Source: an uncultured virus (IMG/VR IMGVR_UViG_3300040751_003707)
Taxonomy: Duplodnaviria; Heunggongvirae; Uroviricota; Caudoviricetes
Direction: 5' to 3' (one strand)
DNA: 64,000 bases
Virus record (IMG/VR): IMGVR_UViG_3300040751_003707
The position numbers and the translations under genes are program-made. The notes under the pieces were generated by a model. That model was not told the origin of the DNA. It did no database searches and saw nothing but the letters and a program-made list of their open reading frames with translations. Positions within the stretch are counted from its first letter, which is position 1, and each line of letters begins with the position of its first letter. Positions 1-56,680 of this stretch are shown in pieces.

Positions 1-943
1 CGAAGTTACTTCTTGGAAAGGTGCGGGATTAAATCTAAAAGAGTCTTGGGAAAGTATCATTCAACCTTGTGTGTCTACAAGATGGTCACGACAAAACTCA
101 GATAAGTTCGGTGCTAATCCTGGAAGAGCACTTATAATCTCTACCCCCAAGGGCTATGACTATTTCTACGAGCTGTATAATAGGCAGGAGCACGATAATG
201 ACTGGCGATCATACACCTTTACCTACAGGGATTCTCCCTACCTAGACGAGGCAGAGATTGACAGAGTGAAGCTAACTCTGGATCCTCTTAAGTTCTCACG
301 AGAATACGAAGCCAGTTTTGAAGACTCTGGTAATAATGTATTCTATACTTTTGATAGGAAAGATCATATTGATGCTTCTCTACCTTACTTTGAGGAAGAG
401 GAAGAAGTACATGTAGCAATTGACTTCAATGTCGGTATCATGGCTTCTGTTATCTTTGCTATCAGAGGAAACCAAATTCATGTACTAGATGAAATGCAAG
501 GTCATCCTGATACAGAGACATTAGCAAACAGACTAAAGGAAAAGTTTAAGAAAAACAGACGGATTATTTCTTATCCAGATCCCGCTGGCAAAGCAAGGAA
601 GACTTCTGCTGCTGTTGGAACCACTGACTTTTCTATTTTACAATCAACGGGGATTCTTACAAGAGCACATAATAAGGCTCCACCAATTATTGATTCTGTT
701 GCTGCTGTTAATAAGAAATTTAAAAATGCTAATGGAGATATTGATATTTACATTCACCCCCGTTGTGTTAATACAATCAAATCTATTGAAAGAACACAAT
801 GGACAGAATCTAACCCAGATACAGCTACTATTGATAAAAAAGAAGGTATTGAACATTGGTCAGATGCTTTCCGTTATGCCGTTGAGTATCTGTATCCTAT
901 CCGAGCAGGTACTAAAGTAGCTACAAGAGGTTTCAACTTTTAA
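1..943 (+). CDS. terL: Terminase large subunit, 5'-truncated by the window edge
   Basis: Frame is open from base 2 (EVTSWKG...). Coupling motif IISTPKG, and RNase H-like nuclease motifs VAIDFN and EHWSDAFRYA. Confidence 0.93.
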   Translation, partial: EVTSWKGAGLNLKESWESIIQPCVSTRWSRQNSDKFGANPGRALIISTPKGYDYFYELYNRQEHDNDWRSYTFTYRDSPYLDEAEIDRVKLTLDPLKFSREYEASFEDSGNNVFYTFDRKDHIDASLPYFEEEEEVHVAIDFNVGIMASVIFAIRGNQIHVLDEMQGHPDTETLANRLKEKFKKNRRIISYPDPAGKARKTSAAVGTTDFSILQSTGILTRAHNKAPPIIDSVAAVNKKFKNANGDIDIYIHPRCVNTIKSIERTQWTESNPDTATIDKKEGIEHWSDAFRYAVEYLYPIRAGTKVATRGFNF

Positions 944-3748: not shown

Positions 3749-5095
3749 ATGACAACAAAGATTATTTTAAAAAAGTCAAGTGTTAGTGGTAACATCCCAG
3801 ACACATCACAACTAGATGTTGGTGAAGTTGCCATTAACCTTGCAGATAAAAAGCTTTACTCAAAAACTGGTAGCAATGAAATCATTGAGATTGGCGGGGC
3901 CGACTCAATTACTAATTTAGATAATATTGATTATATTGATTTTGATACTACCTATGAGCCAGCTAATCCAACAACAAGTTCTCTTTATTGGAATTCTGAT
4001 GAAGAAACTTTAAATCTTACTGTAAACGATAACGTGACATTACAAGTTGGACAAGAGCTTTTATGGAATGTCAAAAATCAGACAGGCTCTACTATTACTA
4101 ATGGCACACCAGTAATGGCAGTTGGGACTGTTGGCTCTTCAGGGCGTATTCTAATCTCTCCGATGGATGGTACAGATCCTGATAATGCTAAATATTTCCT
4201 CGGTATAGCTACGGAAACAATTCTTAATGGGGAAGATGGTAAAGTCACCCACTTTGGGAAAGTTAGAGACATTGATACTTCTTCTTATTCAGAAGGAGCT
4301 GTTTTATATGTTTCAACAACAACTTTAGGCGCAGTACAAACTACAGAACCTACATCTGGATTAAATTTACCAATTGCTTTTGTAGTTACATCAAGTGAAA
4401 CTTCTGGTACTATTGCCGTTCGTGTAAAAAATATCGACGTCAATTCTTTTGCTACTTCTGCACAAGGTACTCTTGCAGACTCTGCCTTACAAGCAGAAGA
4501 TATTGGAGTTACTGTACAAGGTTATAATGTAAATACTGTAATTGATTCAAATTATGTTCATACAGATAATAATTACACCACTGTTGAAAAAAATAAACTT
4601 GCAGGAATCGAGGCTAATGCGGATGTAACTGATTCTACAAATGTTCAAGCGGCAGGGGCCTTAATGGATAGTGAGCTGGATAATCTCACAGCAGTCAAGG
4701 CTCTTGATCAAGGTGTATCAACAACGGATAGCCCAACTTTTACTGGTTTGACCGTCGGTACGGATACATTTACGGTTTCAGGATCTATAACTGAGCAGGT
4801 ATATAACTGGTCTAGCACTACAGGATCTGTTACAACTGAGTTAGAGCCGGATAACGGAACTATTCAAACACTCACGCTTACAGGTAATATAACCGCACTG
4901 ACAGATAATTTTTCGTCTGGACAAGCACTGACTTTACACATTACTGATGGAGGCTATACTATCACTTGGCCAACGATGACTTGGGTAAACAACGGAGGTA
5001 GTGCTCCTGATTTAAGCACCCCTACTTTTACGGTAGTATCTATTTGGAAAGTTGGCAGCACGCTCTACGGAGCACTTGTGGGGGACGGTTCGTAA
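3749..5095 (+). CDS. Tail or head fibre protein (N-terminus paralogous to the upstream gene)
   Basis: AGGAG RBS before ATG 3749; MTTKIILKKSS..GEVAINLADKKLY; EKNKLAGIEANA coiled-coil motif. Confidence 0.7.
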   Translation: MTTKIILKKSSVSGNIPDTSQLDVGEVAINLADKKLYSKTGSNEIIEIGGADSITNLDNIDYIDFDTTYEPANPTTSSLYWNSDEETLNLTVNDNVTLQVGQELLWNVKNQTGSTITNGTPVMAVGTVGSSGRILISPMDGTDPDNAKYFLGIATETILNGEDGKVTHFGKVRDIDTSSYSEGAVLYVSTTTLGAVQTTEPTSGLNLPIAFVVTSSETSGTIAVRVKNIDVNSFATSAQGTLADSALQAEDIGVTVQGYNVNTVIDSNYVHTDNNYTTVEKNKLAGIEANADVTDSTNVQAAGALMDSELDNLTAVKALDQGVSTTDSPTFTGLTVGTDTFTVSGSITEQVYNWSSTTGSVTTELEPDNGTIQTLTLTGNITALTDNFSSGQALTLHITDGGYTITWPTMTWVNNGGSAPDLSTPTFTVVSIWKVGSTLYGALVGDGS

Positions 5096-5754
5096 TGTTG
5101 TTTCATAAAACGATTGGGGCTGGTGGGACTGGTGGCAGCACTGCAGCCCCTATATATACCGGAGGATATCTGCAATCTGCAGAATCAACGGCAGACAGGA
5201 GTAGTTATACCTTTAGTTCTATAAATATAGGCACTGCAGCCTCCGATAGGATGGTATTGGTGGCTGTGCATTATTTTACCAATTCTTACACTGTCCCTAC
5301 GGTTACTGTAGGAGGCTCAACAACGACTCGAATATCTACAACATTCGGCCCCTACGAGTGTCAGGTATCTACACATAATATAAATATAACCACAGGGACT
5401 GTTGCTAATATAGTTGTGTCTTTTTCTACTGCACCGCTTAGATGCGCTATATCGGTATACTCTTTTTACGGCCTCAGCTCACAAACACCAACTGATACAA
5501 GCGTAGATGGTGGCGGGTTAGATATAGCTTCTACTAGTTTATCTACTGAATCCGGTGGTCTAGTTTTTCACGCTGGGTCAAATTTTGGGGGTGCTGCTGG
5601 TATATGGGGTAGCTTAGATCCTTCTATAGAAGATGAAAATGAAAATCAGTATTATAGCTCAGGTTTTACTGTAGGCACAGGCTCGACTATGGTAGAATCT
5701 CTTGATTCTCCAGGCACTAATAGAGTATCACTGGTTTCAGCAACATGGTCATAA
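5095..5754 (+). CDS. Ser/Thr/Gly-rich putative receptor-binding or fibre-tip protein
   Basis: ATG overlaps the upstream stop (TAATG); beta-rich composition. Confidence 0.55.
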   Translation: MLFHKTIGAGGTGGSTAAPIYTGGYLQSAESTADRSSYTFSSINIGTAASDRMVLVAVHYFTNSYTVPTVTVGGSTTTRISTTFGPYECQVSTHNINITTGTVANIVVSFSTAPLRCAISVYSFYGLSSQTPTDTSVDGGGLDIASTSLSTESGGLVFHAGSNFGGAAGIWGSLDPSIEDENENQYYSSGFTVGTGSTMVESLDSPGTNRVSLVSATWS

Positions 5755-5778
5755 AGTACAAACTACTAGGAGAGTAAA

Positions 5779-15722: not shown

Positions 15723-17306
15723 ATGGCTCAACTGATTAAAGCTGCTAAACCAACTAAAAAGTCTGTAGCTGACCCTAGTGATAGTTATCACTCATTAAAG
15801 CCTCTCTGGAAAAAAGCAAGAGCTGTACTACAAGGTGAGGATAATGCAAAAGCTCACGATGAATTCGTAAGAGATAAAGACAATCTTCTTATCCCTTTTT
15901 CTCCTTCTATGACTCAAGAACAATATGAGTTTTATAAGAAAGAAGCAGAACTTCCCGGATTAGTTGCTCAGTACTGTAAGGTGTTAATTACCTCACTTCT
16001 CAGGAAAAAGTCTCAGTTAACACTACCAGAAGACCTTCCTGAAGATGCTATAGATTGGATTGAAACTAACTTTACACTCGACGGTAGAGGTCTTTTTAAC
16101 TTTCTAGATACAGCGTTGTGGGAAGAACTACAAACATCCCGGTGTTGGGTTTATGTAGACTATCCTAATATCGCTATAGAAGAATGGGAAGCTATGTCTA
16201 CTGAGGATAAAGAGGTTGTGTCCCCTTATCCTGTTGTGATTAAAGCAGAAAATGTAATCAATTATCAAACAAGTATTCATCCAATTACACGAATAAAGTC
16301 TATCACAAGGTTTGTAACTCGTTATATTGTTGAAGAATATACTGATGTTGAAAACCCTTGGCACCCCGAATATCAAGATGTCGTAGCAGACCATTACCTT
16401 GATGAATCTGGTGGCCTTGTTATTGATTACTACAAAAGAGAATATCAAGCAGATAATGTAAAAATCTTAAATGGTGAAGTTTCTCGTGAGTTCTTAGACA
16501 GGCTCACTGAAGCTAAATTTGTTAAGTATGATACAGTTTATCCTACTATGTGGGGAGAGCGTGTCCCTAAGATTCCAGCATGGCCTTTAAACGGACAGAT
16601 TGAACCGATCGAACCAGTGTTAATGCCTCTAATTGACAGAGAGATTTCTCTTTATAATAAAATCTCAAGAAGAAACCACCTTCTATATGGTGCAGCTACT
16701 TATACTCCGATTGTAAAATCAGATATGTCTGATGATGAGTTTCAAGAGATTGTAAACGCTGGCCTTGGTACTTGGCTCAGGGTCCGTAAAGACGAAGATA
16801 TTTCTGTTTTACAAACACCCACAGCGGCTCTTTCTGATATGGACAGATCTATTAAAGAAACTGTTGAAGATATGGCTAAGATGGGTATTAGGATGTTATC
16901 CCCGGAACAAGCTGCTTCAGGTGTTGCTTTAGAAATCAGGAATGCATCTCAGACAGCTCAACTCGGGTCACTTAACGCTAAGATCTCCTCTACTATGAGA
17001 GAGATTATTGCATTTATGCTGAATTGGAAATACAACAGGTATTACACAGGAAACGATATTAACTTCCAGATGTCCGCAGACTTCTCACCGATTGTTGGTG
17101 GCGAGGGTTCAATGAGACTCGTTACAGAATGGTACAGAGAAGGGTTTATCCCTCGTTCTGTATTTCTCAATATTGCAAAATATAATGATTTCCTTCCTGC
17201 AGACTATGACGATGAATCAGCTATTGCTGAAATTCAGACAGACTCACTTGTCGCCGGGAGTCAACAAAACCAACCACAACTTGATGTTATGGAAACAGAA
17301 GCTTAA
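15723..17306 (+). CDS. Portal protein (DUF4055-like)
   Basis: 527 aa, first gene of the head module; CWVYVDYP motif and acidic C-terminus. Confidence 0.8.
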   Translation: MAQLIKAAKPTKKSVADPSDSYHSLKPLWKKARAVLQGEDNAKAHDEFVRDKDNLLIPFSPSMTQEQYEFYKKEAELPGLVAQYCKVLITSLLRKKSQLTLPEDLPEDAIDWIETNFTLDGRGLFNFLDTALWEELQTSRCWVYVDYPNIAIEEWEAMSTEDKEVVSPYPVVIKAENVINYQTSIHPITRIKSITRFVTRYIVEEYTDVENPWHPEYQDVVADHYLDESGGLVIDYYKREYQADNVKILNGEVSREFLDRLTEAKFVKYDTVYPTMWGERVPKIPAWPLNGQIEPIEPVLMPLIDREISLYNKISRRNHLLYGAATYTPIVKSDMSDDEFQEIVNAGLGTWLRVRKDEDISVLQTPTAALSDMDRSIKETVEDMAKMGIRMLSPEQAASGVALEIRNASQTAQLGSLNAKISSTMREIIAFMLNWKYNRYYTGNDINFQMSADFSPIVGGEGSMRLVTEWYREGFIPRSVFLNIAKYNDFLPADYDDESAIAEIQTDSLVAGSQQNQPQLDVMETEA

Positions 17307-17330: not shown

Positions 17331-20300
17331 ATGGCTATTAATGATGATATATACGACAGAATCGTAGACCATATGACAGACGTAAGGTTATATGAAGAGA
17401 GTGTTCAGGTTCAAAATAGACGGATTTTTTCTCGACATAGATCAAACCTAAGAGATCTTTTACGTGGCGATCTACGTGCAAACTTAGAAAGAGAAATGAG
17501 ACGGTTTTCAAGAGAACTTCAAGTTCATCAAGAAACTGCAATGAGAGAATTCTCTACTTCTCAGTTAGACTTTCATACAAGTAACTTAAACAAATCCGTT
17601 GGTTCTTTCTTTAATGTACAGAGACCAAGATCCAGAGAAATCCTTGCCCAAATAACCGGAAATGCTATTAGGGGTGATAACACTATCGCAGGCAATATTC
17701 AAAATATTTCTGCCGGTGAGCTTGTAAGAATCCAAAACAAGGTTAATCTCGGGTTATCAAGAGGAAGATCAAGAAATGACATTATTTCAGACGTATTATC
17801 AACAACTAAGCTATCTGAGCATCAGGCACGCACCCTTACTAGAACCGCTATTACAAGCACTCAGTCTACTGCCCTTATTAATGTAGTAGAAAGAAACAAA
17901 GATATTATCTCTGGCTACATGTTTACTGCCATCTTAGATGGTAAAACTAGCGCTATTTGTTCTTATCATAATGGTAAAGTATACGATGTCGATGATGCAA
18001 GGTTTAGACCTCCTCTGCATTGGAATTGTAGATCTACCTTAATTCCTGTAGTCAAATCTAAAGATCAGTTGCTTGAAACAGACTCTGCGAGGATTAAACG
18101 TAGAAATCTTAAGGAAACAGCGGATAATCAATTATCTGGTAGAACACCACCACAAGAATCTTTTGGTGAGTGGTTACGAAGACAATCAATGGCTATTCAA
18201 ACAAGAATTTTAGGTTCTGAAGAGAAAGCCAACTTATTCAGACTTGGTACTCTTAAATATGATGACTTTGTAAGTAAAACAGGCGAGCTTCTTTCTATTG
18301 CTGCTCTTAGACGAAGAGCTGCTGAAGTCACCGCACCGTACTTTGGTAAAGTAAATGTCACTGACAGAGATACAGTTATCAGGGCATCAAGACCTTCTTT
18401 TCTTATTAATAATCCATCTAGGAGAGATGAACTACTATCTATGTTTATCTCTGACTCTTTAGACTTTAATAAGACTTTATCTCTTACCGACTACAGAGGT
18501 ACTTCCCTCGTTGGTAAACAAGCATCAAGAAGGCGCTATGGTAACACCTTCGATGAAAGAAACCACAGTGAAGATCCCTTTACTGGTGAGATTACCAACA
18601 CTAATATTTATGCCCCTGATTTTAATTTGTTGCAAGAACGAATTGACTTTATGAGAGCGTCTAAAACCCTTACAAGAGACCAAAAGGACTTTATTGAGGA
18701 CTTTGCTAATAGACTTGAAGACCGTGTTTCAGTTAATCAACAAACAGTAATTGTTGAAAATCTCCGGGTTGTGTTTGAACGATATATGAGAGACAAAACC
18801 CCCTGGGATGATGTTGCATCTGTTTTACGTGCAGAAAACAGGTTTGCAGTTCAAAACACTTCAAGACTACTTGATACAAGATCTAGACAAAGATCTGAGG
18901 TGTTTGCAAGGTATATCACAGGAGAGGGTGGCAGACCACAAGCGCAGGTATTTGGTACTTATTATGATTTCGATGATCTTTCTTCACGTCTACTGAGAGA
19001 TCAAAGAATCTTAGATAGTTGGGAACAGAAAGAGGGCCGCAGGCTTGCAAGAAGGATTTTCTTATCCGGGAGATCCCCTATGAGAACTTACTTTGCAAGG
19101 TTCTTAGATCGATACCCAACTAAGAAAAAGATCGTTTCAAGACTTAATAAAGAGTTTCCAGTATTCTCTAAGGCTTATAATCTTTATAAAAAGTTAAACA
19201 AGAGAGAACCGTCTGATGCTTGGATTACAAAACAAATGGCTAAAATACGAGAAACATATCGTTTTATATTAGACTTTGAGTTTTTAAATATAAGAAAAAA
19301 GCCAAGTAGTAAAGTCTTTAATGAAAAGTCAATTAAGTCTTTATCAGGTATTATGAAATTAATTGCTGAAGGTAATTCAACAGATTATGACACTCTTGCT
19401 ATCAATATCGGTAAGAAGTTACACAGAGACCTTGGTCAGTTAACACCGTTTACTTCTTCAAGTCTAAGAGACTATCATGCAGAAGGTTCGAGGATTCTTG
19501 AATATCTCAGAGATAATAACATTATCAAAATTCAATTCAGAGGTGTTACAAGAAGAGGTGTGATCGATGTCGATACAGGCAGAGCCAGCGGAGGTTGGGG
19601 AGATACAATCTCAAGAGAAGTTATTGTTGTTGATAAACAAGTAAGGGAGCTTCAAGAGACTGCCAGAAGACTGTTTATAAGTAGAAGAATTGGTAATGTG
19701 AATGAAAGAGACCGTCTATACGTAAAGGCAGGTCATAAGACTTACTTTGATGCAAGAGGTAAGAACACAGGTATCCCAATTATTTCTCAAAGTAAATTTG
19801 CTGATTTTGATGCAAATCAAATTGACAGAGACTTTGCTAATATGCTTAATCACGTCATGAATGTGCAATACAGAGTTGACGACGAGTTTGTTGATTTCAT
19901 GGATTATCTACTCAGGTTCAGAGACCCTCGTGGTAATTCTAAGTACTATGACTCTATTAACGAGTTTAGACAAGAGATTATCAGCAGAGGCGAAGGTGGC
20001 TATGGTCTGGTTTCAACTGCTAAATATCATAGACAAAGAGGGCAACCTTTCAGAACTAACGCTTATATTGACTCTCGTGGACGAGTTTATCACAGAGGTT
20101 ACTTAACACCTACTGGTGGTGAAGTGGCAAGACCGTTTCTTAATTCTAACAGAGCTTATTCTCTCTCGCCAGAAGCACTAGATGAGCTTCAGATTCAAAT
20201 GGGTGCTCTTATCGGACCCGGCACAGAAGCCTTAACTCAAGCTGGTAGAAGAGCAATCTTCCAAAGGAATAGAGAAAAGATTATTGAGCTTGGTGAGATC

Positions 20301-21128
20301 ATGCTTTCAACAACTCAACGAGACAGAAGAATTCGTGAATTCCTTGAACACCCATTGATTAAAGGACTTGAAGGGAAAGAAGTCCCTAAGATGGCTAGAA
20401 TGGCTCTTGAGTATGCCAGAATCAATCGTCATGTTGACGGAGATTTTTCTTCTGGTTATAACAGAACCTTTTTTGGTGAAGACCACACCCCTCAAAATGT
20501 ATTAGAAGTACAAAGAAGAGTTGAGGAATTTAGACCTCAAGTGGTTTATCATGAATTTTGGGAAGAACCTGAAACAATTGCTTGGGCAAGAAAAAACGGG
20601 TTTGAGCTAAGGCCCGGTGATTTAAGTTATGCACAAAAGGAAAGATTAATCGAAAGATATGGTGGACAAACAGAGCAGTTTCACAGAGACAGAGAAGCAT
20701 TCATGCTTAGACAGTATAACAATGCGGACCCTAATGTAAGAAACGCATTTGTTGTTGGAAATGACCACGCTTTTGACAGAGGTTCTGTAATTGCTCAGAA
20801 TCCAAATATCAGAAGAATTTCTGCTAATGGCCAAACATATCCTTCTAGGAATGACAAGTTATCTACCTATCAGACAAGACTTATGATCGAGAATGATGCG
20901 TCATCTTCTGGTGCTCAGATCATTGGACTATCAACAAGAGATAGAAGTATTTCCGAGGCAAGCAATGTACTAGCCACTGATAGGAAAAACAGGCTTTATG
21001 ACCTTGTTGCTATGGATACTGTAAATGATCCAGAGTTTATTAACATTCGTGCGTTAAGAGATGCAAACCTAACTTGGGAAGACTTAGCTAAGGCAGCTAA
21101 AGCACAAAACATGGTGCATTTCTACGGT
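17331..21128 (+). CDS. Exon 1 of a MuF (SPP1 gp7-like) minor head protein fused to a T7-like RNA polymerase
   Basis: MuF motifs TRTA, TAILDGKTSAIC, PPLHWNCRSTLIP. RNAP motifs IDSRGRVY, motif A ENDASSSGAQ, and motif B up to KAQNMVHFYG. Confidence 0.88.
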
Positions 21129-21966
21129 AGTTTCCCCAAAACGTGCCGTAGTAAAACCTCGTGAATTCGGTGGAACTCTCCCTGAGACAATACCGAGCGA
21201 AGCCCTTAAAAAGGGGAACGTGTAACGACTATCCGAAAGGAGTACACCTAAATGTCAGGTGGAAGCGCGAGGATACACAAAAGTGTATAAGATATAGTCT
21301 GAACTGCATGGCGACATGCAGATACTTATAAAAGGAACCAAAATGAACTACAAATACCATTATGATGAACTCATAAGAAATTATGGTAAAAAAGAGAAGC
21401 CTATCGGTGTTTATACTGAAGGTCATCATGTTGTACCAAAATTTATGGGCGGCTCTGATGAGAACGATAATATCGTTTATCTTACTGCTAAGGAACACTA
21501 CATTGCTCATTTTTTATTATGGAAAATATACCGCAATACAGAAATGACGTATGCATTCAGGCTTATGAATGCTAATAGAGGTATTCTAGGTAGCTCGACT
21601 TTTGAGAGGCTACGAAAGGAGTATTCTACTAAATCAAGTGAGTTGCTTGCAGGAAGAAAAAACACAGACGAACAGATGCGTAAACAGAATGATGCGATTA
21701 AATCTTATTATCGCAGAATATGTGCAAAGGGAAAACCAAGACTAAAAGGTGTATGGACCGATGCATCAAGAGCGGCCCAATCTGAACGGATGAAGAAAGA
21801 ACACCATCTAGCTAAAGTTGTTATAGTAGATGGTCAAGAATTTCATTCACTAAGAGCAGCTGCAAGACATTTTGAAGTATCTCACAGAACCGTTAAAAGA
21901 TGGTTTTCGTCTGGTAGGGCCTTTTATAAGTAGGTAGGTATGACTAACCTATTTAACAAAAACTTG
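21129..21966 (+). mobile_element. Group I intron (838 nt, IA-like) with embedded homing endonuclease
   Basis: P1 CTACGGT/GCCGTAG with U.G at the splice site; P3 CCTCGTG/CGCGAGG; P7 GACTAT/ATAGTC with AAGATATAGTCT; P9 CTGCATG/CATGCAG; terminal G at 21966; P10 TTCCCCA/TGGGGAA; splicing restores the frame. Confidence 0.9.
21343..21933 (+). CDS. Intron-encoded HNH homing endonuclease (T4 Mob-like)
   Basis: AAAGGA RBS; EGHHVVPKFMGGSD...NIVYLTAKEHYIAH; C-terminal HTH FHSLRAAARHF. Confidence 0.88.
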   Translation: MNYKYHYDELIRNYGKKEKPIGVYTEGHHVVPKFMGGSDENDNIVYLTAKEHYIAHFLLWKIYRNTEMTYAFRLMNANRGILGSSTFERLRKEYSTKSSELLAGRKNTDEQMRKQNDAIKSYYRRICAKGKPRLKGVWTDASRAAQSERMKKEHHLAKVVIVDGQEFHSLRAAARHFEVSHRTVKRWFSSGRAFYK

Positions 21967-22947
21967 GCTGGGGAAGCCACCAAAACAATGAACGTAACTA
22001 ACAAACTATCAAAAGTTCTTGAAGAGTTAGACTTCTTAGTTGTTACTAAGGACAATCTCAGCACTAATTTAAGAATTATTGATGGAAGAATTAAGTTAGC
22101 TGATAGAGCAGGTGCTACTACCTTGTCTCATGAGCTGACACAATTTAGAAGAGAGCTTGTTGAATCTATAAACAGGAATGAACCTGTTGGTAGGATGCTA
22201 TTAAAACAAGCTGAAGAAATACACCCCGATGTTGCAGAGTTTGTAAGAACCCTGACCAATACCAGACGTGGATTAATTGGACCTCAAGAGTTTGCACAAA
22301 TTTCTAGAATCATGTCAAGAAACTTATCTGAAAGAGCACCTATTGCTAACAATTTCGTTAGCTTTTGGAAACAAGCTGGTAGATTGTTTGTAACAGAAAC
22401 CAAGCAAGTTGACATACCTTGGGTTACTTTCGATGGTAAAGTAATGACACAAAGATACAGACCAAGACTTCAAGAAAGAATTGAATTTAGAGACGCTATT
22501 ACTGGTCGTAGAATTCAGAACATCTATGAATCTGCTGCAGAAGATGCAAGGCTATTAGGTAAGTCATCTATTGGTGATGCAGGGATTGGTCTTGGTGTAA
22601 ATGGAAACCACAGCAACGATGCAACTATCGTTAGAAGGTTTCATTTATGGGGAAGAAGAAATAACGTGGATACAGCAACAATTCACGATGCGTTTTTTAC
22701 TAACATCTCAGAAGCTAACCGAGCAAGAGATGCGTTAAGAGAAATTTACGCAGATGCTGTTGAAAGCCAAACTGTTCTAAACACTCTTAAAGAGATGCGG
22801 CGCAGAGGGCTAAGCAGACAAAGTTATAACAGATTAGTAAGACTTGCCAGAGAGCAAGGGCTTATTGATCCTGATAATGCAATTACAAGAGACGATGTTT
22901 TATCACCCCTTACTGAAGGTTTGGATTGGTATGGTATTGGACCTTAA
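21967..22947 (+). CDS. Exon 2 of the MuF-RNAP fusion
   Basis: Continues motif B (AGEATK); IPWVTFDG, GVNGNHSNDA and motif C TIHDAF. Confidence 0.88.
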   Translation, partial: AGEATKTMNVTNKLSKVLEELDFLVVTKDNLSTNLRIIDGRIKLADRAGATTLSHELTQFRRELVESINRNEPVGRMLLKQAEEIHPDVAEFVRTLTNTRRGLIGPQEFAQISRIMSRNLSERAPIANNFVSFWKQAGRLFVTETKQVDIPWVTFDGKVMTQRYRPRLQERIEFRDAITGRRIQNIYESAAEDARLLGKSSIGDAGIGLGVNGNHSNDATIVRRFHLWGRRNNVDTATIHDAFFTNISEANRARDALREIYADAVESQTVLNTLKEMRRRGLSRQSYNRLVRLAREQGLIDPDNAITRDDVLSPLTEGLDWYGIGP

Positions 22948-23025: not shown

Positions 23026-23733
23026 ATGAGTGATGATAAACAAAATAATGTAAACGATGATGATAAGGTGATTGAAGAGGATACTCAAAATCAAGATGAT
23101 GATCTAGATGATAATCAACAAAAACCTGATGATTCTAAACCAGATGACAATTCTCTAGAAGATGAGCTAGAGAAAAAAGTTCAAGAACGACTAGCCAAAA
23201 TGAAAGACAACATGGACCGCATGGCTAAAGCTCGTGATGAGGCTCTTAAAAAGGCAGCCGAACTAGAAGAACAACAAAAGAAAGCTAAGATGGAGCAGCT
23301 TGAAAAAGAAGGTAAGCTACAAGAGCTTGCTGAAATGAAAGCTGCAGAACTAGAAGCTAAGCTCAAGGTAATTGAGGAAGAGAACGTCAAGCTTAAGCGC
23401 GACCAAGTTCTTCATTCTAAACTAGCTACACTTGAATTTAGAAATGAACGCAGCAAAGATATGGCTTACCGTGATATTGTAGATCAACTTACCCAAGATG
23501 ATAATGGTAATTGGGTTCATTCCTCTGGTAAATCTATCTCTGATTTTGTTGAAAGTTACTCAAAAGAAGAAGATAACTCTTTCTTATTTAAAACCAAATC
23601 AAATTCTGGTGCAGGTAAATCCGGTGCCTTCAAAAATTCTGATACAACACAAACAAAGAAAATTACTGAAATGAGCACTCAAGAGATTTTAAAAGCGGCT
23701 CGTGAAGGCAAATTAGGTAATTTTAAATATTAA
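23026..23733 (+). CDS. Capsid scaffolding protein
   Basis: Acidic N-terminus, coiled coil, C-terminal FLFK..SGAG; directly upstream of the capsid gene. Confidence 0.8.
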   Translation: MSDDKQNNVNDDDKVIEEDTQNQDDDLDDNQQKPDDSKPDDNSLEDELEKKVQERLAKMKDNMDRMAKARDEALKKAAELEEQQKKAKMEQLEKEGKLQELAEMKAAELEAKLKVIEEENVKLKRDQVLHSKLATLEFRNERSKDMAYRDIVDQLTQDDNGNWVHSSGKSISDFVESYSKEEDNSFLFKTKSNSGAGKSGAFKNSDTTQTKKITEMSTQEILKAAREGKLGNFKY

Positions 23734-23762
23734 TAATATTATCTATTATAAGGATATGAAAA

Positions 23763-24881
23763 ATGACTATTACAAATACTGACTTTCAGAACATTGCTAT
23801 CGCTATTTCTGCCTACGCAGACGAAGCGTATACTTTCGAAAAGAAGCTTAACTCAACTGGTATTGTTGGGACTCGTGATGACATTACCGCAGATGGTGAA
23901 TCATTTATTGGTCAGTTCCGTTGGTACAAGCCACTAGTTGCAAACATTAACGTTGCATCTCTTTCAAGCGCAAATGATGGTACCTACACTGATATTGCAA
24001 CCGATGTAGCGAACTACATTAAAACCGTTCGTACCTTCGGTGCACAACAGGTAAACCTACAAGAAGTCGTGTCAAAAGAAGACGGTCTCATGAAGATCGC
24101 AAACGACTTTGCTGAAGTACGCGCCCAAGACGAGCATAACGCTCTTCTACAAGTTCTAAAAGGTGTTGCACAACACGAAGTCGCCCTTGGCGATGCTGGT
24201 GACGCAGGTAACGGCGGTATCGTAGCTTTCGACACTGATGCTGATGCATCTGCTACTGGTTTCTTCGTTGATGTTAACGCAGCCGGTGAATTCGGTTCTG
24301 CTGCTACTGATTCAACCGATGAGCGTCGTCTATTTGACTCCTCTGCTGCTGGTGCTGCTCGTGGTGAGCGTCTCTTCAAAGCTATTGGTATGGCATTTAA
24401 AGACTATGAACCTGACTATATGTACCTTGTCACTTCTCCTGAGATGCTTGCAGAACTACGCGCTGCTAACCTAATTGACCAGACTGTTATCACCGATGGC
24501 AACCTAGAATTCCAGACCATCTTCGGTGGTAAATTCCGCCTAATCATGACCCGCGCTAACCAGATGATTTCTGGCACCGCAACTGGTGATCTTAATGCAC
24601 GTTCAGCTAAGTGTACCTTCGTTGTTAAGCCTGAATCTGTTACCTTCGCACCTGTTGGTGTTCCAACTCCTGTTGAAGTAGACCGTAATGCAGCCTCTTA
24701 TACCGGCGGTGGTTCAACTAACGTTTGGTATCGTTACGGCTTTATCATGCATCCAATGGGTTATGACTGGGCTGGTGCAACTAATGCCTTTGCAACTAAC
24801 ACTCAGTTCGGTGCTGCTGCAAGCTGGGATCGTAAGATGGATAGTCTAAACCTTGGTATTCTACCAATCTTCCACGCTTAA
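23763..24881 (+). CDS. Major capsid protein
   Basis: 372 aa after the scaffold; strong codon bias; MHPMGYDW...W.R C-terminal motif. Confidence 0.85.
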   Translation: MTITNTDFQNIAIAISAYADEAYTFEKKLNSTGIVGTRDDITADGESFIGQFRWYKPLVANINVASLSSANDGTYTDIATDVANYIKTVRTFGAQQVNLQEVVSKEDGLMKIANDFAEVRAQDEHNALLQVLKGVAQHEVALGDAGDAGNGGIVAFDTDADASATGFFVDVNAAGEFGSAATDSTDERRLFDSSAAGAARGERLFKAIGMAFKDYEPDYMYLVTSPEMLAELRAANLIDQTVITDGNLEFQTIFGGKFRLIMTRANQMISGTATGDLNARSAKCTFVVKPESVTFAPVGVPTPVEVDRNAASYTGGGSTNVWYRYGFIMHPMGYDWAGATNAFATNTQFGAAASWDRKMDSLNLGILPIFHA

Positions 24882-39379: not shown

Positions 39380-41572
39380 ATGACAAAAACTCCGTTAGAA
39401 GAGTTAACAGAAGACTTAAAACATAGACAAACTTATTTGTTTTCTCAGTCGGGTAGTGTGGATAAACGTAAAAAGGCTTGGAAAATTGCTAATATAGAAG
39501 CACTAGATATCATAGAGCTTACTTATGGTCATGTCCTTACCGGTATTGAAAAGAGAACTTCTCTTGCCACTGTTGTTGCAAATATTGGTAAATCTATAAA
39601 CAGAAAGTATAAACTATCCGCAGACCCTGTCGAAGAAGCGCATATCGGCTGGTTTGTTATGTTATCTTACTTCGAAATGAACTATATCAGTTATGTGGCA
39701 AAACACCTGAAGAAAGCTAATGGTCGTAAATCTAAATACCCAACCTATCAGATAGTTGTAAAAAACGTTGACGCTATTAATCAGATATTAACACTTGTAA
39801 ACAAAGATAAGGTAGATCTCTTTCCAAACTCAGAACCGCCGGGTGACTGGACAGAGGGTTTTACTCATAAGAAAACAGGTTATCCTTTAATCAAGAATGC
39901 ACCTAAAGAAACAATTGATCTTCTGAAATATGAAAATCTGGATTATGTTAAATCGGCCTTGAATAAGCTAAACAACACCGGCTGGCGGATAAACAAAGAT
40001 GTATTCTTAGTGTTTAAAAAGTGTATGTACAATGAGAAAACACCTTTCAAGTTTCACAAGGAAATTGATCCTGTTAAAAAAGCTTCTTTGTTAATTGAAG
40101 TAAACGCAATTGTGGGTATTGCAGAAAGGAATCTCAACAATGCATTCTATCATCTCTATAACCTTGATTTTCGCGGTAGAATTTATCCAAATACTGCCTT
40201 TCTACATGAACAATCCTCGGACAATGCTAAAGGCTTACTTCTCTTAGACCAGCCTGTATTGCTAGGAGAACAAGGTACTTACTGGTTATTTGTACACACT
40301 GCAAACGTACTTGGTCAAGACAAATTAGAACTAGATGAAAGGGTTAACTATGTAGAAAGTATTATAGATGACATAATCGGTTATGCAGAAGATCCCCTTG
40401 TAAACACAGGGTGGATGGATGCAGATAAACCTTTTAGTTTTCTTGCAGCTTGTTATGAAATTTACAAACTATTAGGATGGTGTAATGCAGGATACCCGCC
40501 AGAGGAATTCCCCTCTTGCTTACCAATCTATATCGACGGGAGTAACAACGGGGTTCAACACCTTGTTGCAATGTCCAAAGATCATGAAGTTGCCCCGTTG
40601 GTTAACTTGGTTCAGAGCAAACTTCCCGGCGATGTTTACATGTATATCGCTGAACACGTTATGGAGAAAATTGAAAAACGTTCTAAACTGTTAAAACAAG
40701 AGGATGTTGATAAATTTGAACCGTTGTTTAATGAATACGTTTCACTGCTGAGGGAGATTGAAAAATGGCCTGAAAAATCAGAAAAGAAAAAACTTGCAAA
40801 AGCAGCAATGCTAGAGTTCAAGAACCATAACTATGATCTCCGAGAGAAACTATTCCCTATCTATTGGAATAAAATCAAAGATAAAAAGGTATGGAGAAAG
40901 ATACTTAAAAGAAATGTTATGACATTGGCTTACGGAGGTACTCGTCAAGGCATGGGTGCTCAGATTGTTGATGACACAAGGGATCTCAGCGAGTATCTAA
41001 GAGACAAAGAAGTAAAGTGGGGCTATATGCTGGGTAGCCTTGCTTATGATACATGCTATGAAAGACTCCCCGGACCAGCCAGCATGTTAGAAATGTTTCA
41101 GAGCCTTGCTATCAGAGAAAACAAAGAAAACAGACACCTTGAATACCGAGTGCCAGTTACTAACTTCCCCTTCCGGCATAACTACCGAAAGCCACTTGCA
41201 AAGGAGATAAGCTTTTACTACGGTGAAGAGCGTATCCGGGTTACACTGAGTATCTGGCAAGAAGCAACACTTGACAAGAACAGTCAAAAAACAGGTGCTG
41301 CACCTAACGTAGTTCATAGCCTTGATGCTGCTCATTTGACAAGTGTAATACACGACACAGACTATCCTGTAACAGTTGTTCATGACTCTTTCGGGTGTCA
41401 TGCTGGAAACATGGATAAACTGTTTTATGATGTACGGAAGAAGTTTGTAGAACTCTACGAACAAGAACCACTAGAGTTCATCATGAAACAACTTAACTCA
41501 GAAGACTTGATTCCAAAGAAAGGGCTACTAGATGTCAAAACAGTACTTGAATCAGATTTCGCATTTGCATAA
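39380..41572 (+). CDS. T7-like single-subunit DNA-directed RNA polymerase
   Basis: LDFRGRIY, motif A IDGSNNGVQH, motif B RKILKRNVMTLAYG, PNVVHSLDA, motif C VHDSF, C-terminal FAFA. Confidence 0.96.
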   Translation: MTKTPLEELTEDLKHRQTYLFSQSGSVDKRKKAWKIANIEALDIIELTYGHVLTGIEKRTSLATVVANIGKSINRKYKLSADPVEEAHIGWFVMLSYFEMNYISYVAKHLKKANGRKSKYPTYQIVVKNVDAINQILTLVNKDKVDLFPNSEPPGDWTEGFTHKKTGYPLIKNAPKETIDLLKYENLDYVKSALNKLNNTGWRINKDVFLVFKKCMYNEKTPFKFHKEIDPVKKASLLIEVNAIVGIAERNLNNAFYHLYNLDFRGRIYPNTAFLHEQSSDNAKGLLLLDQPVLLGEQGTYWLFVHTANVLGQDKLELDERVNYVESIIDDIIGYAEDPLVNTGWMDADKPFSFLAACYEIYKLLGWCNAGYPPEEFPSCLPIYIDGSNNGVQHLVAMSKDHEVAPLVNLVQSKLPGDVYMYIAEHVMEKIEKRSKLLKQEDVDKFEPLFNEYVSLLREIEKWPEKSEKKKLAKAAMLEFKNHNYDLREKLFPIYWNKIKDKKVWRKILKRNVMTLAYGGTRQGMGAQIVDDTRDLSEYLRDKEVKWGYMLGSLAYDTCYERLPGPASMLEMFQSLAIRENKENRHLEYRVPVTNFPFRHNYRKPLAKEISFYYGEERIRVTLSIWQEATLDKNSQKTGAAPNVVHSLDAAHLTSVIHDTDYPVTVVHDSFGCHAGNMDKLFYDVRKKFVELYEQEPLEFIMKQLNSEDLIPKKGLLDVKTVLESDFAFA

Positions 41573-42795: not shown

Positions 42796-43367
42796 TGACC
42801 GATCGAATTATTAAACGTCTAGCAATTGAATCAAGAGGTTACACACCTTACGCCGCAGCCTTTTGGAAAGTACCTCCGGAAGAGTTGAAAGGAGAGAAGG
42901 AGTTTCATGTTTTAACTTATAACGAGCATAACGATACTTACTGTGAGCACATCTACCAATCAGCCGCATATTGGGGTGAATACTCAACAGTTGTTGGCTA
43001 TGCCATCCCCGAACAAGAAAACAAAACTGATGATAATGATGATGACTTAGATGTTATTATTAATCCAGACCACTACAGGACAATCCCTGCTGGTAATTAT
43101 CCCAATGGTATTCAGTACATGGGTATTGTTGCATTCTTGCTTACAAAGAAGCAAAATGCTTTAGATCACTATGAAGCTCATATGTACTCTCAGATTATGA
43201 AGTATTCACTTCGTTTGGGAGAAAAAGACAAAACTCTTCAAGACATGAAGAAAATTAAATGGTATGTAGACCTCTTTATCCTTTATAACGAAGTAAAACT
43301 CGGCAATAAAGATTTAAGGGATTTTGTAGCACAATGGGAAATTGTAAACAAAAAGGTAGAAGATTAA
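42795..43367 (+). CDS. DUF3310-like (T7 gp1.7-like) protein
   Basis: INPDHY and MKY..R.G.K....QDMKKIKWY motifs. Confidence 0.65.
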   Translation: MTDRIIKRLAIESRGYTPYAAAFWKVPPEELKGEKEFHVLTYNEHNDTYCEHIYQSAAYWGEYSTVVGYAIPEQENKTDDNDDDLDVIINPDHYRTIPAGNYPNGIQYMGIVAFLLTKKQNALDHYEAHMYSQIMKYSLRLGEKDKTLQDMKKIKWYVDLFILYNEVKLGNKDLRDFVAQWEIVNKKVED

Positions 43368-56517: not shown

Positions 56518-56600
56518 GCCAGTATGGTGAAATTGGTAAACACAGGGGACTTAAAATCCCCCGCGAAAGCTTGTCGGTTCAAGTCCGACTACTGGCACCA
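56518..56600 (+). tRNA. tRNA-Leu(TAA)
   Basis: GCCAGTA/TACTGGC acceptor, GGGGA-CTTAAAA-TCCCC, variable arm, GTTCAAGTC T loop, CCA. Confidence 0.93.
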
Positions 56601-56605
56601 ATTAT

Positions 56606-56680
56606 GCTCTTGTGGTGTAACGGTAACACTCACCGCTCATAACGGTTGCGCTACAGGTTCGAATCCTGTCGGGAGCACCA
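56606..56680 (+). tRNA. tRNA with CAT anticodon (elongator Met or Ile2)
   Basis: GCTCTTG/CGGGAGC acceptor, ACCG-CTCATAA-CGGT, GGTTCGAATCC, CCA; G1:C72 pair argues against an initiator. Confidence 0.88.

What the first reader, a model, noticed from the sequence alone, without database searches (positions are those of the whole stretch)
21129..21966. Group I intron with HNH endonuclease inserted in catalytic motif B of the virion-type RNAP
Seen: exon CTACGGT pairs with guide GCCGTAG (U.G at 21128); P3, P7 and P9 are present; the intron ends in G at 21966; the 3' exon TGGGGAA pairs with TTCCCCA (P10). Removing 838 nt joins FYG to AGEATK in frame, so track ORFs 17331..21164 and 21940..22947 are one gene. 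Known: phage group I introns are mostly reported in td, nrd, DNA polymerase and some structural genes; a single-subunit RNAP host gene is unusual to my knowledge. Unspliced RNA would give a 1277-aa MuF protein lacking motif C, so splicing gates polymerase production (inference).
Basis: partly seen in the sequence, partly recalled or inferred. Interest (0 to 1): 0.8.

Follow-up and report, generated by a model that had tools for sequence, protein, structure and literature searches.

The report
Self-splicing intron in phage RNA polymerase
A mobile self-splicing (group I) intron carrying its own DNA-cutting enzyme gene really does interrupt the active-site codons of a capsid-protein-fused RNA polymerase gene of an uncultured estuarine phage, and public environmental RNA data hold the correctly joined message; it is a well-proven new example of a known kind of element.

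Summary
Confirmed. Window 21129-21966 is an 838-nt group I intron (Rfam RF00028, 67.2 bits against a cut-off of 50). It has P1 with a U.G pair at 21128, a P3-P9 core with P7.1/P7.2, a terminal G at 21966, and a 196-aa HNH homing-endonuclease ORF (21343-21933) after P9.

It splits one gene, 17331-21128 plus 21967-22947 (1592 aa). The gene has an N-terminal MuF head domain and a C-terminal T7-like single-subunit RNAP. The intron sits directly after the Tyr-Gly of motif B (T7 Y639-G640); motif C lies in exon 2.

Seventy-one of 72 assessable IMG/VR relatives, and roseophages DSS3_VP1 and DSS3_PM1 (Naomviridae), are uninterrupted exactly at the predicted junction. Metatranscriptome contigs from two studies join 21128 to 21967, while a DNA-run contig keeps the intron.

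Against one relative, the ribozyme core is 96% identical but exon 2 only 70%, which indicates horizontal mobility. In a sister clade, motif B is an intron hot spot, with 5 sites in 33 nt and tandem introns with 17- and 26-nt micro-exons.

Virion packaging is inferred, not shown. This is a new member of a known kind: introns in multisubunit phage RNAP genes are published, and an earlier, unchecked note of this scan reports one in another T7-like RNAP.

The parts
17331..21128 (+). Exon 1 (1266 codons): MuF/SPP1-gp7-like head domain, linker, and the RNAP N-terminal part through motif A (DASSSGAQ) and motif B up to Tyr-Gly
   Evidence: PF04233 at 54.9 bits, aa 134-238. phrog_241 at 2.2e-54 and phrog_414 RNA polymerase on aa 1178-1275. 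Alignment with DSS3_VP1. Profile alignment to T7 RNAP.
21122..21128 (+). P1, exon strand CUACGGU; 5' splice site after U21128
   Evidence: Sequence, fold, RNA joint at 21128.
21129..21966 (+). Group I intron, 838 nt
   Evidence: Rfam RF00028 at 67.2 bits. 838 nt are skipped in RNA contigs. Absent from 71 of 72 assessable relatives.
21132..21138 (+). Proposed P10 guide UUCCCCA, complementary to exon-2 bases 21969-21975
   Evidence: Sequence only. Not tested by covariation. It is separated from the P1 guide by 6 nt, so it is not a canonical contiguous guide.
21145..21151 (+). Internal guide sequence GCCGUAG (P1 intron strand)
   Evidence: The same guide is present in L087.
21157..21321 (+). Ribozyme core P3-P9, including P7.1/P7.2 and the P7 pseudoknot
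   Evidence: Rfam alignment, helix coordinates, covariation counts.
21343..21933 (+). Intron ORF: 196-aa HNH homing endonuclease with a C-terminal NUMOD1/HTH-like DNA-binding tail. The start MNY... is conserved in homologues; AAGGA lies upstream.
   Evidence: phrog_655 at 2e-40 and phrog_12434 at 1.5e-11. NUMOD1 at 21.5 bits, below its cut-off of 22.8. Alignment of 10 intron ORFs.
21927..21955 (+). 3'-terminal hairpin overlapping the ORF stop codon (P9.x-like)
   Evidence: Fold at -10.1 kcal/mol, z -2.2, with 9 of 200 shuffles as good. Weak support.
21967..22947 (+). Exon 2 (326 codons plus stop): rest of motif B helix, fingers, and motif C (IHDAFF)
   Evidence: PF00940 at 22.4 bits against a cut-off of 22. 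phrog_414 on aa 133-286. tblastn contiguity with exon 1 in DSS3_VP1 and DSS3_PM1. Profile alignment to T7 H811-D812.
15723..17306 (+). Context: portal protein gene directly upstream
   Evidence: phrog_145 at 1.1e-46.
23026..24881 (+). Context: scaffold (23026-23733) and major head protein (23763-24881) genes directly downstream
   Evidence: phrog_206 at 4.2e-11 and phrog_247 at 3e-24.
39380..41572 (+). Context: second, free-standing and uninterrupted T7-like RNAP (730 aa)
   Evidence: phrog_414 at 2.5e-122. Motifs A, B and C are visible in the translation.

Best explanation
Window 21129-21966 is a functional, mobile group I intron of the phage subgroup-IA type (P7.1/P7.2 present). It lies in the gene for a 1592-aa protein made of an N-terminal MuF head-morphogenesis domain and a C-terminal T7-like single-subunit RNA polymerase.

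The gene is transcribed through the intron. The ribozyme folds: P1 forms between CUACGGU and the guide GCCGUAG. Inferred from the family's known chemistry, an external guanosine attacks after U21128, and the freed exon end attacks after G21966. This joins the Gly codon of motif B (Tyr-Gly, equivalent to T7 Y639-G640) to the next Ala codon.

Only spliced mRNA encodes motif C and hence an active polymerase. Unspliced RNA gives a 1277-aa MuF protein that ends 11 codons into the intron.

The ORF after P9 encodes an HNH endonuclease. Inferred from the family: it nicks or cuts intronless alleles of this very conserved site in co-infecting relatives, and repair from the intron-bearing copy spreads the intron (homing).

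Shown here: the intron fold, the exact junction, the joined form in RNA libraries, the polymerase identity, the motif-B position, and a pattern typical of horizontal spread. Inferred: guanosine-dependent self-splicing, nuclease activity and target, and packaging of the polymerase in the capsid.
For: - Rfam scores 67.2 bits against a cut-off of 50, E 7e-15.
- Core helices are supported by covariation: 87.7% paired, 20 of 49 pairs changed on both sides, 0 of 500 shuffles reach this.
- The P1 hairpin has z -4.1.
- tblastn of exon 1 ends at DSS3_VP1 base 24652 and exon 2 starts at 24653, inside one annotated CDS. DSS3_PM1 shows the same at 43178/43179.
- Of 72 IMG/VR loci with both flanks, 71 are contiguous at the junction; the one other is the same phage.
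- In RNA run X4, one 2088-nt contig (depth 11.4) joins 21128|21967 and skips 838 nt, with at most 1 mismatch over 1063 exon nt. In RNA run X5, from another study, a 60-nt unitig (depth 15.6) shows the same joint beside an unspliced contig (depth 7.9).
- In DNA run X2, a 1222-nt contig runs through the intron and no joint is seen.
- The family profile hits T7 RNAP at E 7e-26, with motifs A, B and C aligned.
- The AF2 model of an intronless homologue's polymerase domain has pLDDT 89.4, and its best Foldseek hit is T7 RNAP at E 1.2e-18.
- Window against L087: core 96% nt, endonuclease gene 83.5% nt, exon 2 69.9% nt and 57.7% aa.
- The endonuclease ORF matches phrog_655 at 2e-40, and the HH/N/H residues are conserved in 9 homologues from three insertion sites.
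Against: - The RNA evidence comes from assembled contigs, not raw reads, and RNA libraries can hold DNA. A near-identical intronless strain in those samples would give the same joint. None is known: the closest intronless relatives among the 80 kept loci are at most 72% identical in exon 2.
- RNA run X3 showed no joint; its contigs were fragmentary.
- No Pfam HNH model matched the ORF at E <= 0.01, and matches to solved HNH proteins are weak, best E 0.011.
- P10 as proposed is not contiguous with the P1 guide and has no covariation support.
- No P2 was found.
- Nothing here shows self-splicing in vitro or nuclease activity.
Confidence: 0.92

Rival explanations
1. The intron-like insert no longer splices. 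The joined contigs in RNA libraries come from an intronless variant of the same phage (as DNA carry-over or its mRNA), and the window's phage makes a truncated MuF protein plus a separate C-terminal fragment.
For: Contigs cannot tell RNA from contaminating DNA. Only 2 of 3 RNA runs laid show the joint. Intronless alleles are the rule in relatives, 71 of 72.
Against: - The exons in the X4 joined contig differ from the window at 1 of 1063 positions, yet no near-identical intronless allele appears among the 80 best IMG/VR loci or in DNA run X2, whose contig keeps the intron.
- The core scores above Rfam's cut-off and all helices are intact.
- The core is 96% identical to L087's, which implies purifying selection or recent transfer.
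- Motif C alone on a 326-aa fragment would not be a polymerase.
Confidence: 0.04
2. A naturally split polymerase: two polypeptides (as in the two-subunit N4 RNAPII) with a free-standing HNH gene between them and no RNA splicing.
For: EBPR siphovirus 1 is annotated as three separate genes, gp47, gp48 and gp49. A heterodimeric T7-like RNAP exists: PDB 6dt7 RNAP1/RNAP2 is hit weakly by the family profile.
Against: - The break falls inside the motif-B helix, one codon after the catalytic Tyr.
- A ribozyme core fills the gap.
- ORF 21940 has no conserved start: its first 9 codons are intron sequence.
- A joined RNA form exists.
- 71 of 72 relatives are uninterrupted.
Confidence: 0.02
3. The intron is not only a passenger. 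Its HNH enzyme serves the phage as a weapon that cuts the capsid-RNAP gene of co-infecting intronless relatives (interference competition, as shown for PhiPA3 gp210), and/or splicing efficiency tunes how much full-length polymerase is packaged.
For: - There is a precedent in a virion RNAP gene (preprint passages).
- The target codons are nearly invariant in 71 intronless alleles.
- The same HNH family sits in introns at three neighbouring sites, and 17 of 74 assessable loci of the sister clade carry motif-B introns.
- Both spliced and unspliced forms occur in run X5.
Against: No functional data exist. Patchy distribution with high intron identity is equally what a purely selfish element gives. 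Contig depths cannot measure splicing efficiency.
Confidence: 0.3

Closest known systems
PhiPA3 gp210 intron in the virion RNAP beta-subunit gene gp211/gp209 (Birkholz et al.; preprint 10.1101/2023.09.30.560319, abstract and passages read; journal version PMC11620839 seen in a search listing only)
   Same: A group I intron carrying an HNH homing endonuclease, inserted next to conserved catalytic residues of a phage RNA polymerase that is (there shown, here inferred) packaged in the virion.
   Different: The PhiPA3 host gene is a multisubunit, RpoB-like polymerase of a nucleus-forming jumbo phage. Here it is a T7-like single-subunit polymerase fused to MuF in a ~70-kb-class siphophage. Nuclease activity and competition are shown there and untested here.
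Phage subgroup-IA group I introns with HNH or GIY-YIG genes in conserved genes (T4 td/nrdB/nrdD; SPO1 DNA polymerase with I-HmuI; T7-like PhiI DNA polymerase): recalled from knowledge, not from a call. LUZ24 DNA-polymerase intron: passages of PMC10914365.
   Same: Compact core with P7.1/P7.2. The endonuclease ORF sits in a peripheral region. The insertion is at highly conserved codons of an essential gene. U precedes the 5' splice site and the intron ends in G.
   Different: The host gene differs. The ORF lies after P9 rather than in P6a or P8 (the positions for those introns are recalled). No P2 was found.
Introns with the most similar cores: Lelliottia phage phD2B terL (KM370384), Bacillus phages SerPounce, Claudi and Baseball_field major capsid gene, Klebsiella phage RCIP0099
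   Same: 81-85% nt identity over about 80-98 nt of the core. The helices are shared and vary by compensatory changes.
   Different: They sit in unrelated host genes of unrelated phages, with different guide sequences. phD2B carries a different annotated endonuclease.
EBPR siphovirus 1 gp47 / gp48 (HNH) / gp49 (JF412302)
   Same: A homologous MuF-RNAP gene (33% aa identity), a homologous HNH ORF, and a related intron in motif B. The record annotates three genes.
   Different: Its intron sits 13 nt upstream (after the second base of the Val codon of N-M-V) with its own matching P1 and P10 guides. Its Rfam score is 40.5, below the cut-off.
[quoted passage not shown] 2024, title seen only in a reference list)
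   Same: A T7-like polymerase domain embedded in a large virion-associated protein, with a second, non-virion RNAP encoded elsewhere in the genome.
   Different: The carrier here is a MuF domain and the protein is 1592 aa, not ~3500. The best structural matches are T7 and mitochondrial RNAPs, and no N4 vRNAP chain is in the rows shown. Packaging was not tested.

Membership tests
Group I intron (Rfam RF00028) | Covariance-model score at or above the curated gathering score | tested here: met
   67.2 bits against 50, E 7e-15 on the 64-kb window.
Group I intron (Rfam RF00028) | P1 between the 5' exon end and an internal guide, with a U.G pair at the splice site | tested here: met
   CUACGGU pairs with GCCGUAG, with U21128.G21145. 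The hairpin has z -4.1.
Group I intron (Rfam RF00028) | Conserved core P3-P8 with the P3/P7 pseudoknot, supported by covariation | tested here: met
   Eleven helices placed. 87.7% of cells pair against 32-45% when slid, and 20 of 49 pairs change on both sides, though on only 5 sequences.
Group I intron (Rfam RF00028) | Terminal G and exact in-frame exon ligation in RNA | tested here: met
   G21966. The joint 21128|21967 is seen in contigs of 2 of 3 RNA runs laid and 0 of 1 DNA run. These are contigs, not reads.
Group I intron (Rfam RF00028) | Guanosine-dependent self-splicing in vitro | not testable with these tools
   Needs transcription of the precursor and incubation with GTP and Mg2+.
HNH homing endonuclease | HNH (beta-beta-alpha-metal) catalytic motif | tested here: inconclusive
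   phrog_655 at 2e-40 and phrog_12434 'HNH endonuclease' at 1.5e-11. HH..N..H is conserved in the alignment. No Pfam HNH model matches at E <= 0.01, and solved HNH proteins match only at E 0.011-0.5.
HNH homing endonuclease | Cuts the intronless allele near the insertion site | not testable with these tools
   The target region is nearly invariant at codon positions 1-2 in 71 intronless alleles.
HNH homing endonuclease | Signs of horizontal mobility | tested here: met
   The intron core is 96% and the endonuclease gene 83.5% identical to L087, while exon 2 is 69.9%. The intron is present in the window/L003, L087 and L059 lineages and absent from 71 relatives.
T7-like single-subunit RNA polymerase (PF00940) | Family profile match | tested here: met
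   Exon 2 scores 22.4 bits against a cut-off of 22. The intronless homologue L007 scores 29.2 bits across the junction. The family profile hits T7 RNAP at E 7.1e-26.
T7-like single-subunit RNA polymerase (PF00940) | Catalytic residues: Asp of motifs A and C, Lys and Tyr of motif B | tested here: met
   Invariant D350, K418, Y426, G427 and D668 in 24 diverse sequences. They align to T7 D537, K631, Y639-G640 and D812 (T7 residue numbers recalled).
T7-like single-subunit RNA polymerase (PF00940) | Fold | tested here: met
   AF2 model with pLDDT 89.4 and pTM 0.84. Foldseek top hit is T7 RNAP 3e2e_A at E 1.2e-18, TM 0.62. The model is of homologue L007, not of the window's protein.
Virion-packaged (injected) RNA polymerase | Protein present in the virion and active early after injection | not testable with these tools
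   Indirect only: the MuF domain at 54.9 bits, the position between portal and scaffold/capsid genes, and a second free RNAP in the window. No virion proteome was found in the DSS3_VP1 paper passages.

The most novel reading that the evidence does not exclude
The motif-B codons of a capsid-delivered, MuF-fused single-subunit RNA polymerase are a battleground. This polymerase is not recognised in the two papers I searched on the deoxyuridine-DNA roseophages DSS3_VP1/DSS3_PM1.

One HNH-endonuclease lineage has repeatedly moved its intron to neighbouring positions: 5 sites within 33 nt, and up to two introns in motif B with micro-exons of 17 and 26 nt. Like PhiPA3 gp210, it disables the injected-polymerase gene of co-infecting intronless relatives. 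On this reading the intron is a competition weapon, and the polymerase is a new class of injected early-transcription enzyme.
Probability: 0.2. Interest if true: 0.75.

Novelty: new member of a known kind. Interest (0 to 1): 0.5.

Why it matters
- It corrects gene calls. Two or three 'genes' (minor head protein, HNH, hypothetical protein) are one spliced gene, both here and in the public record of EBPR siphovirus 1.
- It shows that the 'minor head protein-like protein' of the Naomviridae roseophages and several hundred uncultured relatives carries a T7-like RNA polymerase. The two DSS3_VP1 papers I searched do not mention one (0 occurrences of 'RNA polymerase'). That polymerase points to an N4-like strategy of bringing a polymerase in the capsid.
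- It gives a natural series of related introns and endonucleases at five adjacent sites. Such a series is a good system for studying how homing endonucleases and intron guide sequences re-target.
- The splice junction is already visible in public metatranscriptomes, so the element can be studied without a cultured host.

Tried and rejected
- The window's own assembly is not held. The nearest record, G001, a 15-kb fragment, has no RF00028 match.
- A single-sequence search of the polymerase domain against solved structures gave nothing significant, best E 0.22. A profile was needed.
- Searching the HNH ORF against solved structures gave spurious repeat-protein (TPR) hits on its last 30 residues and only weak HNH hits.
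- I first suspected that extra DNA upstream of motif A and ~20 codons after Tyr-Gly in some relatives was further introns. Those inserts are in frame, without stops, and have no Rfam hit at the gathering score (L099, L100, L106, L117, L156). They are protein insertions, not introns.
- L132 also has no hit at the gathering score. It carries the EBPR-type intron, which scores 40.5 bits.
- An intein was rejected. The insert has stops in the host frame and a ribozyme core.
- RNA run X3 gave no joint and fragmentary cover. This is not evidence either way.
- The first version of my spliced-alignment script invented introns in the poorly conserved 9 residues upstream. I shortened the reference and raised the penalty.
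- Notes of this scan near this place: none.
- Literature searches for an intron in a single-subunit phage RNAP gene and for MuF-RNAP fusions listed nothing that describes either. The pVa5 paper's intron is in td. Iyer et al. 2017 discuss MuF fusions and N4 vRNAP, but in the passages shown not a MuF-RNAP fusion. I did not read its figures or supplements.
Full report
**What is at the site.**
- The 5' exon ends ...CUACGGU at 21128, and the complementary GCCGUAG lies at 21145-21151, giving a U.G pair at the splice site.
- UUCCCCA (21132-21138) complements UGGGGAA at 21969-21975, and the insert ends in G21966.
- Rfam's group I model matches 21028-21321 at 67.2 bits (gathering score 50, E 7e-15). 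It is the only intron hit among 3 matches in the 64-kb window; the other two are tRNAs. The alignment shows that the first ~100 nt of the match are exon fitted loosely to the model's P1/P2, and the true core starts near 21157.
- I placed P3, P4, P5, P6/P6a, P7, P7.1, P7.2, P8 and P9 by hand. Two hairpins between the 5' strand of P7 and the 3' strand of P3 are, from recalled knowledge, the mark of subgroup IA. I found no P2.
- The P1 hairpin folds at -12.3 kcal/mol, z -4.1, with 0 of 200 shuffles as good.

**Covariation.** A megablast of 20500-22600 against 50,697 phage records found 10 records. Nine match about 80-98 nt of the core at 81-85% identity: Bacillus phages SerPounce, Claudi and Baseball_field, Klebsiella phage RCIP0099 and Lelliottia phage phD2B. 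These lie between split capsid or terminase genes. I aligned the window with three of these and the EBPR siphovirus intron, 5 sequences in all.
- My 49 core pairs are 87.7% paired, against 32-45% when the 3' partners are slid.
- Twenty pairs change on both sides, and 0 of 500 shuffles reach any measure.
- The structure was derived from the window sequence, which favours it somewhat, and MAFFT aligned the EBPR P8-P9 region badly.

**The host gene.**
- ORF 17331-21164 carries a MuF domain (PF04233, 54.9 bits) and head-morphogenesis PHROGs.
- Its last 100 residues and ORF 21940-22947 hit consecutive parts of one 'RNA polymerase' profile (phrog_414 positions 499-602 and 640-784). Exon 2 just reaches PF00940 (22.4 against 22).
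- An intronless IMG/VR homologue (L007, 1453 aa) matches PF00940 across the junction at 29.2 bits.
- A search of 1.84 billion representatives gave 141 relatives at E <= 0.001. I picked 19 of these with the widest coverage, plus 5 loci translations, 24 rows in all.
- The profile of those 24 rows hits T7 RNAP at E 7.1e-26. It aligns the family's DASxSG with T7's DGSCSG (motif A), K..K.......YG with T7's K......YG (motif B, Y639-G640) and IHDAFF with IHDSFG (motif C) (T7 residue numbers recalled).
- The AF2 model of the L007 polymerase domain has pLDDT 89.4. Its best Foldseek match is T7 RNAP (E 1.2e-18, TM 0.62), followed by mitochondrial RNAPs.

**The junction.**
- tblastn of the last 410 codons of exon 1 and of exon 2 found 4 phage records each. 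In DSS3_VP1 (two records) and DSS3_PM1 the two matches abut (24652/24653 and 43178/43179) inside one annotated 'minor head protein-like protein' CDS, which lies between portal and coat genes.
- The computed spliced product is 1592 aa and 58% identical to that CDS.
- In IMG/VR, 464 stretches encode relatives of exon 2, and the best 80 loci were returned. Of these, 72 hold both flanks: 71 are contiguous exactly at the predicted point, and one (L003, 99-100% identical, the same phage) has the 838-nt insert. Eight lack the upstream flank.

**RNA evidence.** Thirteen public runs hold the stretch, 8 of them metatranscriptomes. I laid 3 RNA runs and 1 DNA run.
- X4 (RNA): one 2088-nt contig, depth 11.4, runs 20600-21128 and straight on at 21967-22500 ('skips 838', no ambiguity in placement), with 1 mismatch in 1063 nt.
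- X5 (RNA, another study): a 60-nt unitig, depth 15.6, shows the same joint beside an unspliced contig covering 21099-21996, depth 7.9.
- X3 (RNA): fragmentary, with no joint.
- X2 (DNA): a 1222-nt contig runs through the whole intron, and no joint is seen.
- These are contigs, so levels and strand cannot be read. DNA of a hypothetical intronless twin strain cannot be formally excluded, but no such strain is seen anywhere else.

**The endonuclease.**
- The ORF conserved among homologues starts at ATG 21343 (MNY...) and ends at 21933, 196 aa. The longer call from 21316 starts inside P9.
- It matches phrog_655 'homing endonuclease' (2e-40) and phrog_12434 'HNH endonuclease' (1.5e-11). Its C-terminus resembles NUMOD1/HTH at 21.5 bits, below the cut-off.
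- Pfam HNH models and solved HNH proteins match weakly or not at all. Family membership therefore rests on PHROGs and on the conserved HH...N...H pattern in 9 homologues.

**Mobility.** A scan with the endonuclease found one further contig, L087.
- L087 has the same guide sequence and the same 3' splice site.
- Identity to the window is 190 of 198 nt (96%) in the core and 83.5% in the endonuclease gene, but only 69.9% nt and 57.7% aa in exon 2.
- L059, whose exon 2 is 61% identical, starts inside a homologous endonuclease ORF and has the same 3' splice site.
- An intron far better conserved than its host gene, present in three diverged lineages and absent from 71 others, is the expected trace of homing.
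- The target codons in the 71 intronless alleles are almost invariant at first and second positions.

**A hot spot.** EBPR siphovirus 1 (33% identical gene) has gp47, gp48 (HNH) and gp49 annotated separately. The gap holds a group I core (40.5 bits, below the cut-off) and a homologous HNH ORF. Its intron, however, lies 13 nt upstream, with P1 and P10 guides that fit its own site.
- A scan with a protein of that clade returned 80 of 419 loci. In 28 of them, tblastn pieces are separated by extra DNA of 260 nt or more.
- I sent 18 of those 28 to Rfam. This gave 20 hits above the gathering score in 12 loci, and up to 3 per locus.
- I wrote a spliced protein-to-DNA alignment that forces T before each intron and G as its last base, so these two features are imposed, not observed. 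It covered 162 sources: 128 are contiguous through motif B, 14 are not assessable, and 20 carry introns.
- The introns lie at five positions within 33 nt:

| Site (position in ...RKAAKAQNMVxFYGAG...) | Sources |
|---|---|
| Before the Ala codon 11 codons upstream of the window's site | L142 |
| Before the Gln codon | L119, L120, L152, L143 |
| After base 2 of the Val codon | EBPR, L122, L131, L132, L133, L134, L139, L154 |
| After base 2 of the Phe codon | L119, L120, L152, L142, L148-L150 |
| After the Gly codon | window, L003 |

- Two further loci, L129 and L144, are partial.
- L119, L120 and L152 have two ORF-less introns separated by a 17-nt micro-exon, which I also read by eye. L142 has two separated by 26 nt.
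- The same HNH family sits in introns at three of the sites. L142's first intron has a different endonuclease.
- Ends of ORFs among the representative proteins suggest still more sites, but that is inferred from protein ends alone.

**Is the polymerase a virion enzyme?** Evidence is indirect.
- MuF domains are head components often fused to injected effectors (Iyer et al. 2017, passages).
- The gene lies between portal (phrog_145) and scaffold/major head genes.
- The window also encodes a free-standing, uninterrupted 730-aa T7-like RNAP at 39380-41572 in the replication module. This echoes the virion plus non-virion polymerase pairs of N4 and phiKZ-like phages.
- I put this reading at about 0.7. 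The passages found in the DSS3_VP1 paper hold no virion proteome, and 'RNA polymerase' does not occur in the text. It does not occur in the 2025 dU-biosynthesis paper either.

**Comparison and novelty.**
- Group I introns with HNH genes at catalytic codons of phage polymerase genes are well known. PhiPA3 gp210 lies in a virion RNAP beta gene, and LUZ24 has one in its DNA polymerase gene.
- Earlier notes of this scan, not checked by me, list many in jumbo-phage RNAP genes, one in the T7-like RNAPII of an N4-like phage, and micro-exons of 16-18 nt. The scan has therefore seen this kind before on other DNA.
- My searches listed no paper that describes an intron in a single-subunit phage RNAP gene or a MuF-RNAP fusion. 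Subscription journals and supplements were not covered.
- I file it as a new member of a known kind, unusually well documented, with interest 0.5.
- The added value is fourfold: the RNA-level proof, the corrected gene models, the recognition of a capsid-module RNAP in Naomviridae-like phages, and the five-site hot spot.

Noticed in passing
window 39380-41572 (+): A second, free-standing T7-like RNA polymerase (730 aa; phrog_414 at 2.5e-122; canonical motifs A, B and C), uninterrupted. The phage therefore encodes two single-subunit RNAPs: one in the head module fused to MuF and one in the replication module.
   Followed up: partly
window ~20451-20840 (+); L099 1422-1769; L100 2326-2760: An in-frame insertion of ~130 aa just upstream of motif A, absent from DSS3_VP1 and EBPR, with no Pfam match. 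Relatives carry other in-frame inserts at the same place: 116 aa with a GNAT acetyltransferase match in L099 (PF00583, 27.5 bits) and 145 aa of unknown kind in L100. This is a hot spot for protein-level insertions, not introns.
   Followed up: partly
L116-L122, L124, L152 (e.g. L117 2302-3000): An in-frame insertion of ~233 aa about 20 residues after the motif-B Tyr-Gly in one sub-clade. It has no stop, no Pfam match and no Rfam hit.
   Followed up: partly
L119 630-887 and 905-1161; L142 1737-2686 and 2713-2999: Tandem group I introns inside motif B, separated by micro-exons of 17 nt (L119, L120, L152) and 26 nt (L142). L133 has three Rfam-scored introns on one locus.
   Followed up: yes
L002 (JF412302) 4912-5761: The public record of EBPR siphovirus 1 annotates gp47 'head protein', gp48 'HNH endonuclease' and gp49 'hypothetical protein'. 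They are one MuF-RNAP gene split by an 850-nt group I intron.
   Followed up: yes
L059 1-68 and 479-546: The first 68 bases of this IMG/VR contig repeat its bases 479-546 exactly and then continue in the middle of the endonuclease ORF. This is most likely an assembly artefact.
   Followed up: no
window 2-943 (+): The window opens inside the C-terminal part of a large terminase gene (phrog_10250, phrog_2). The DSS3_VP1 paper reports a group I intron with an endonuclease in its terL. Whether this phage has one upstream of the window could not be seen.
   Followed up: no
window 56518-56677 (+): Two adjacent tRNA genes (Rfam RF00005, 61.9 and 56.8 bits).
   Followed up: no
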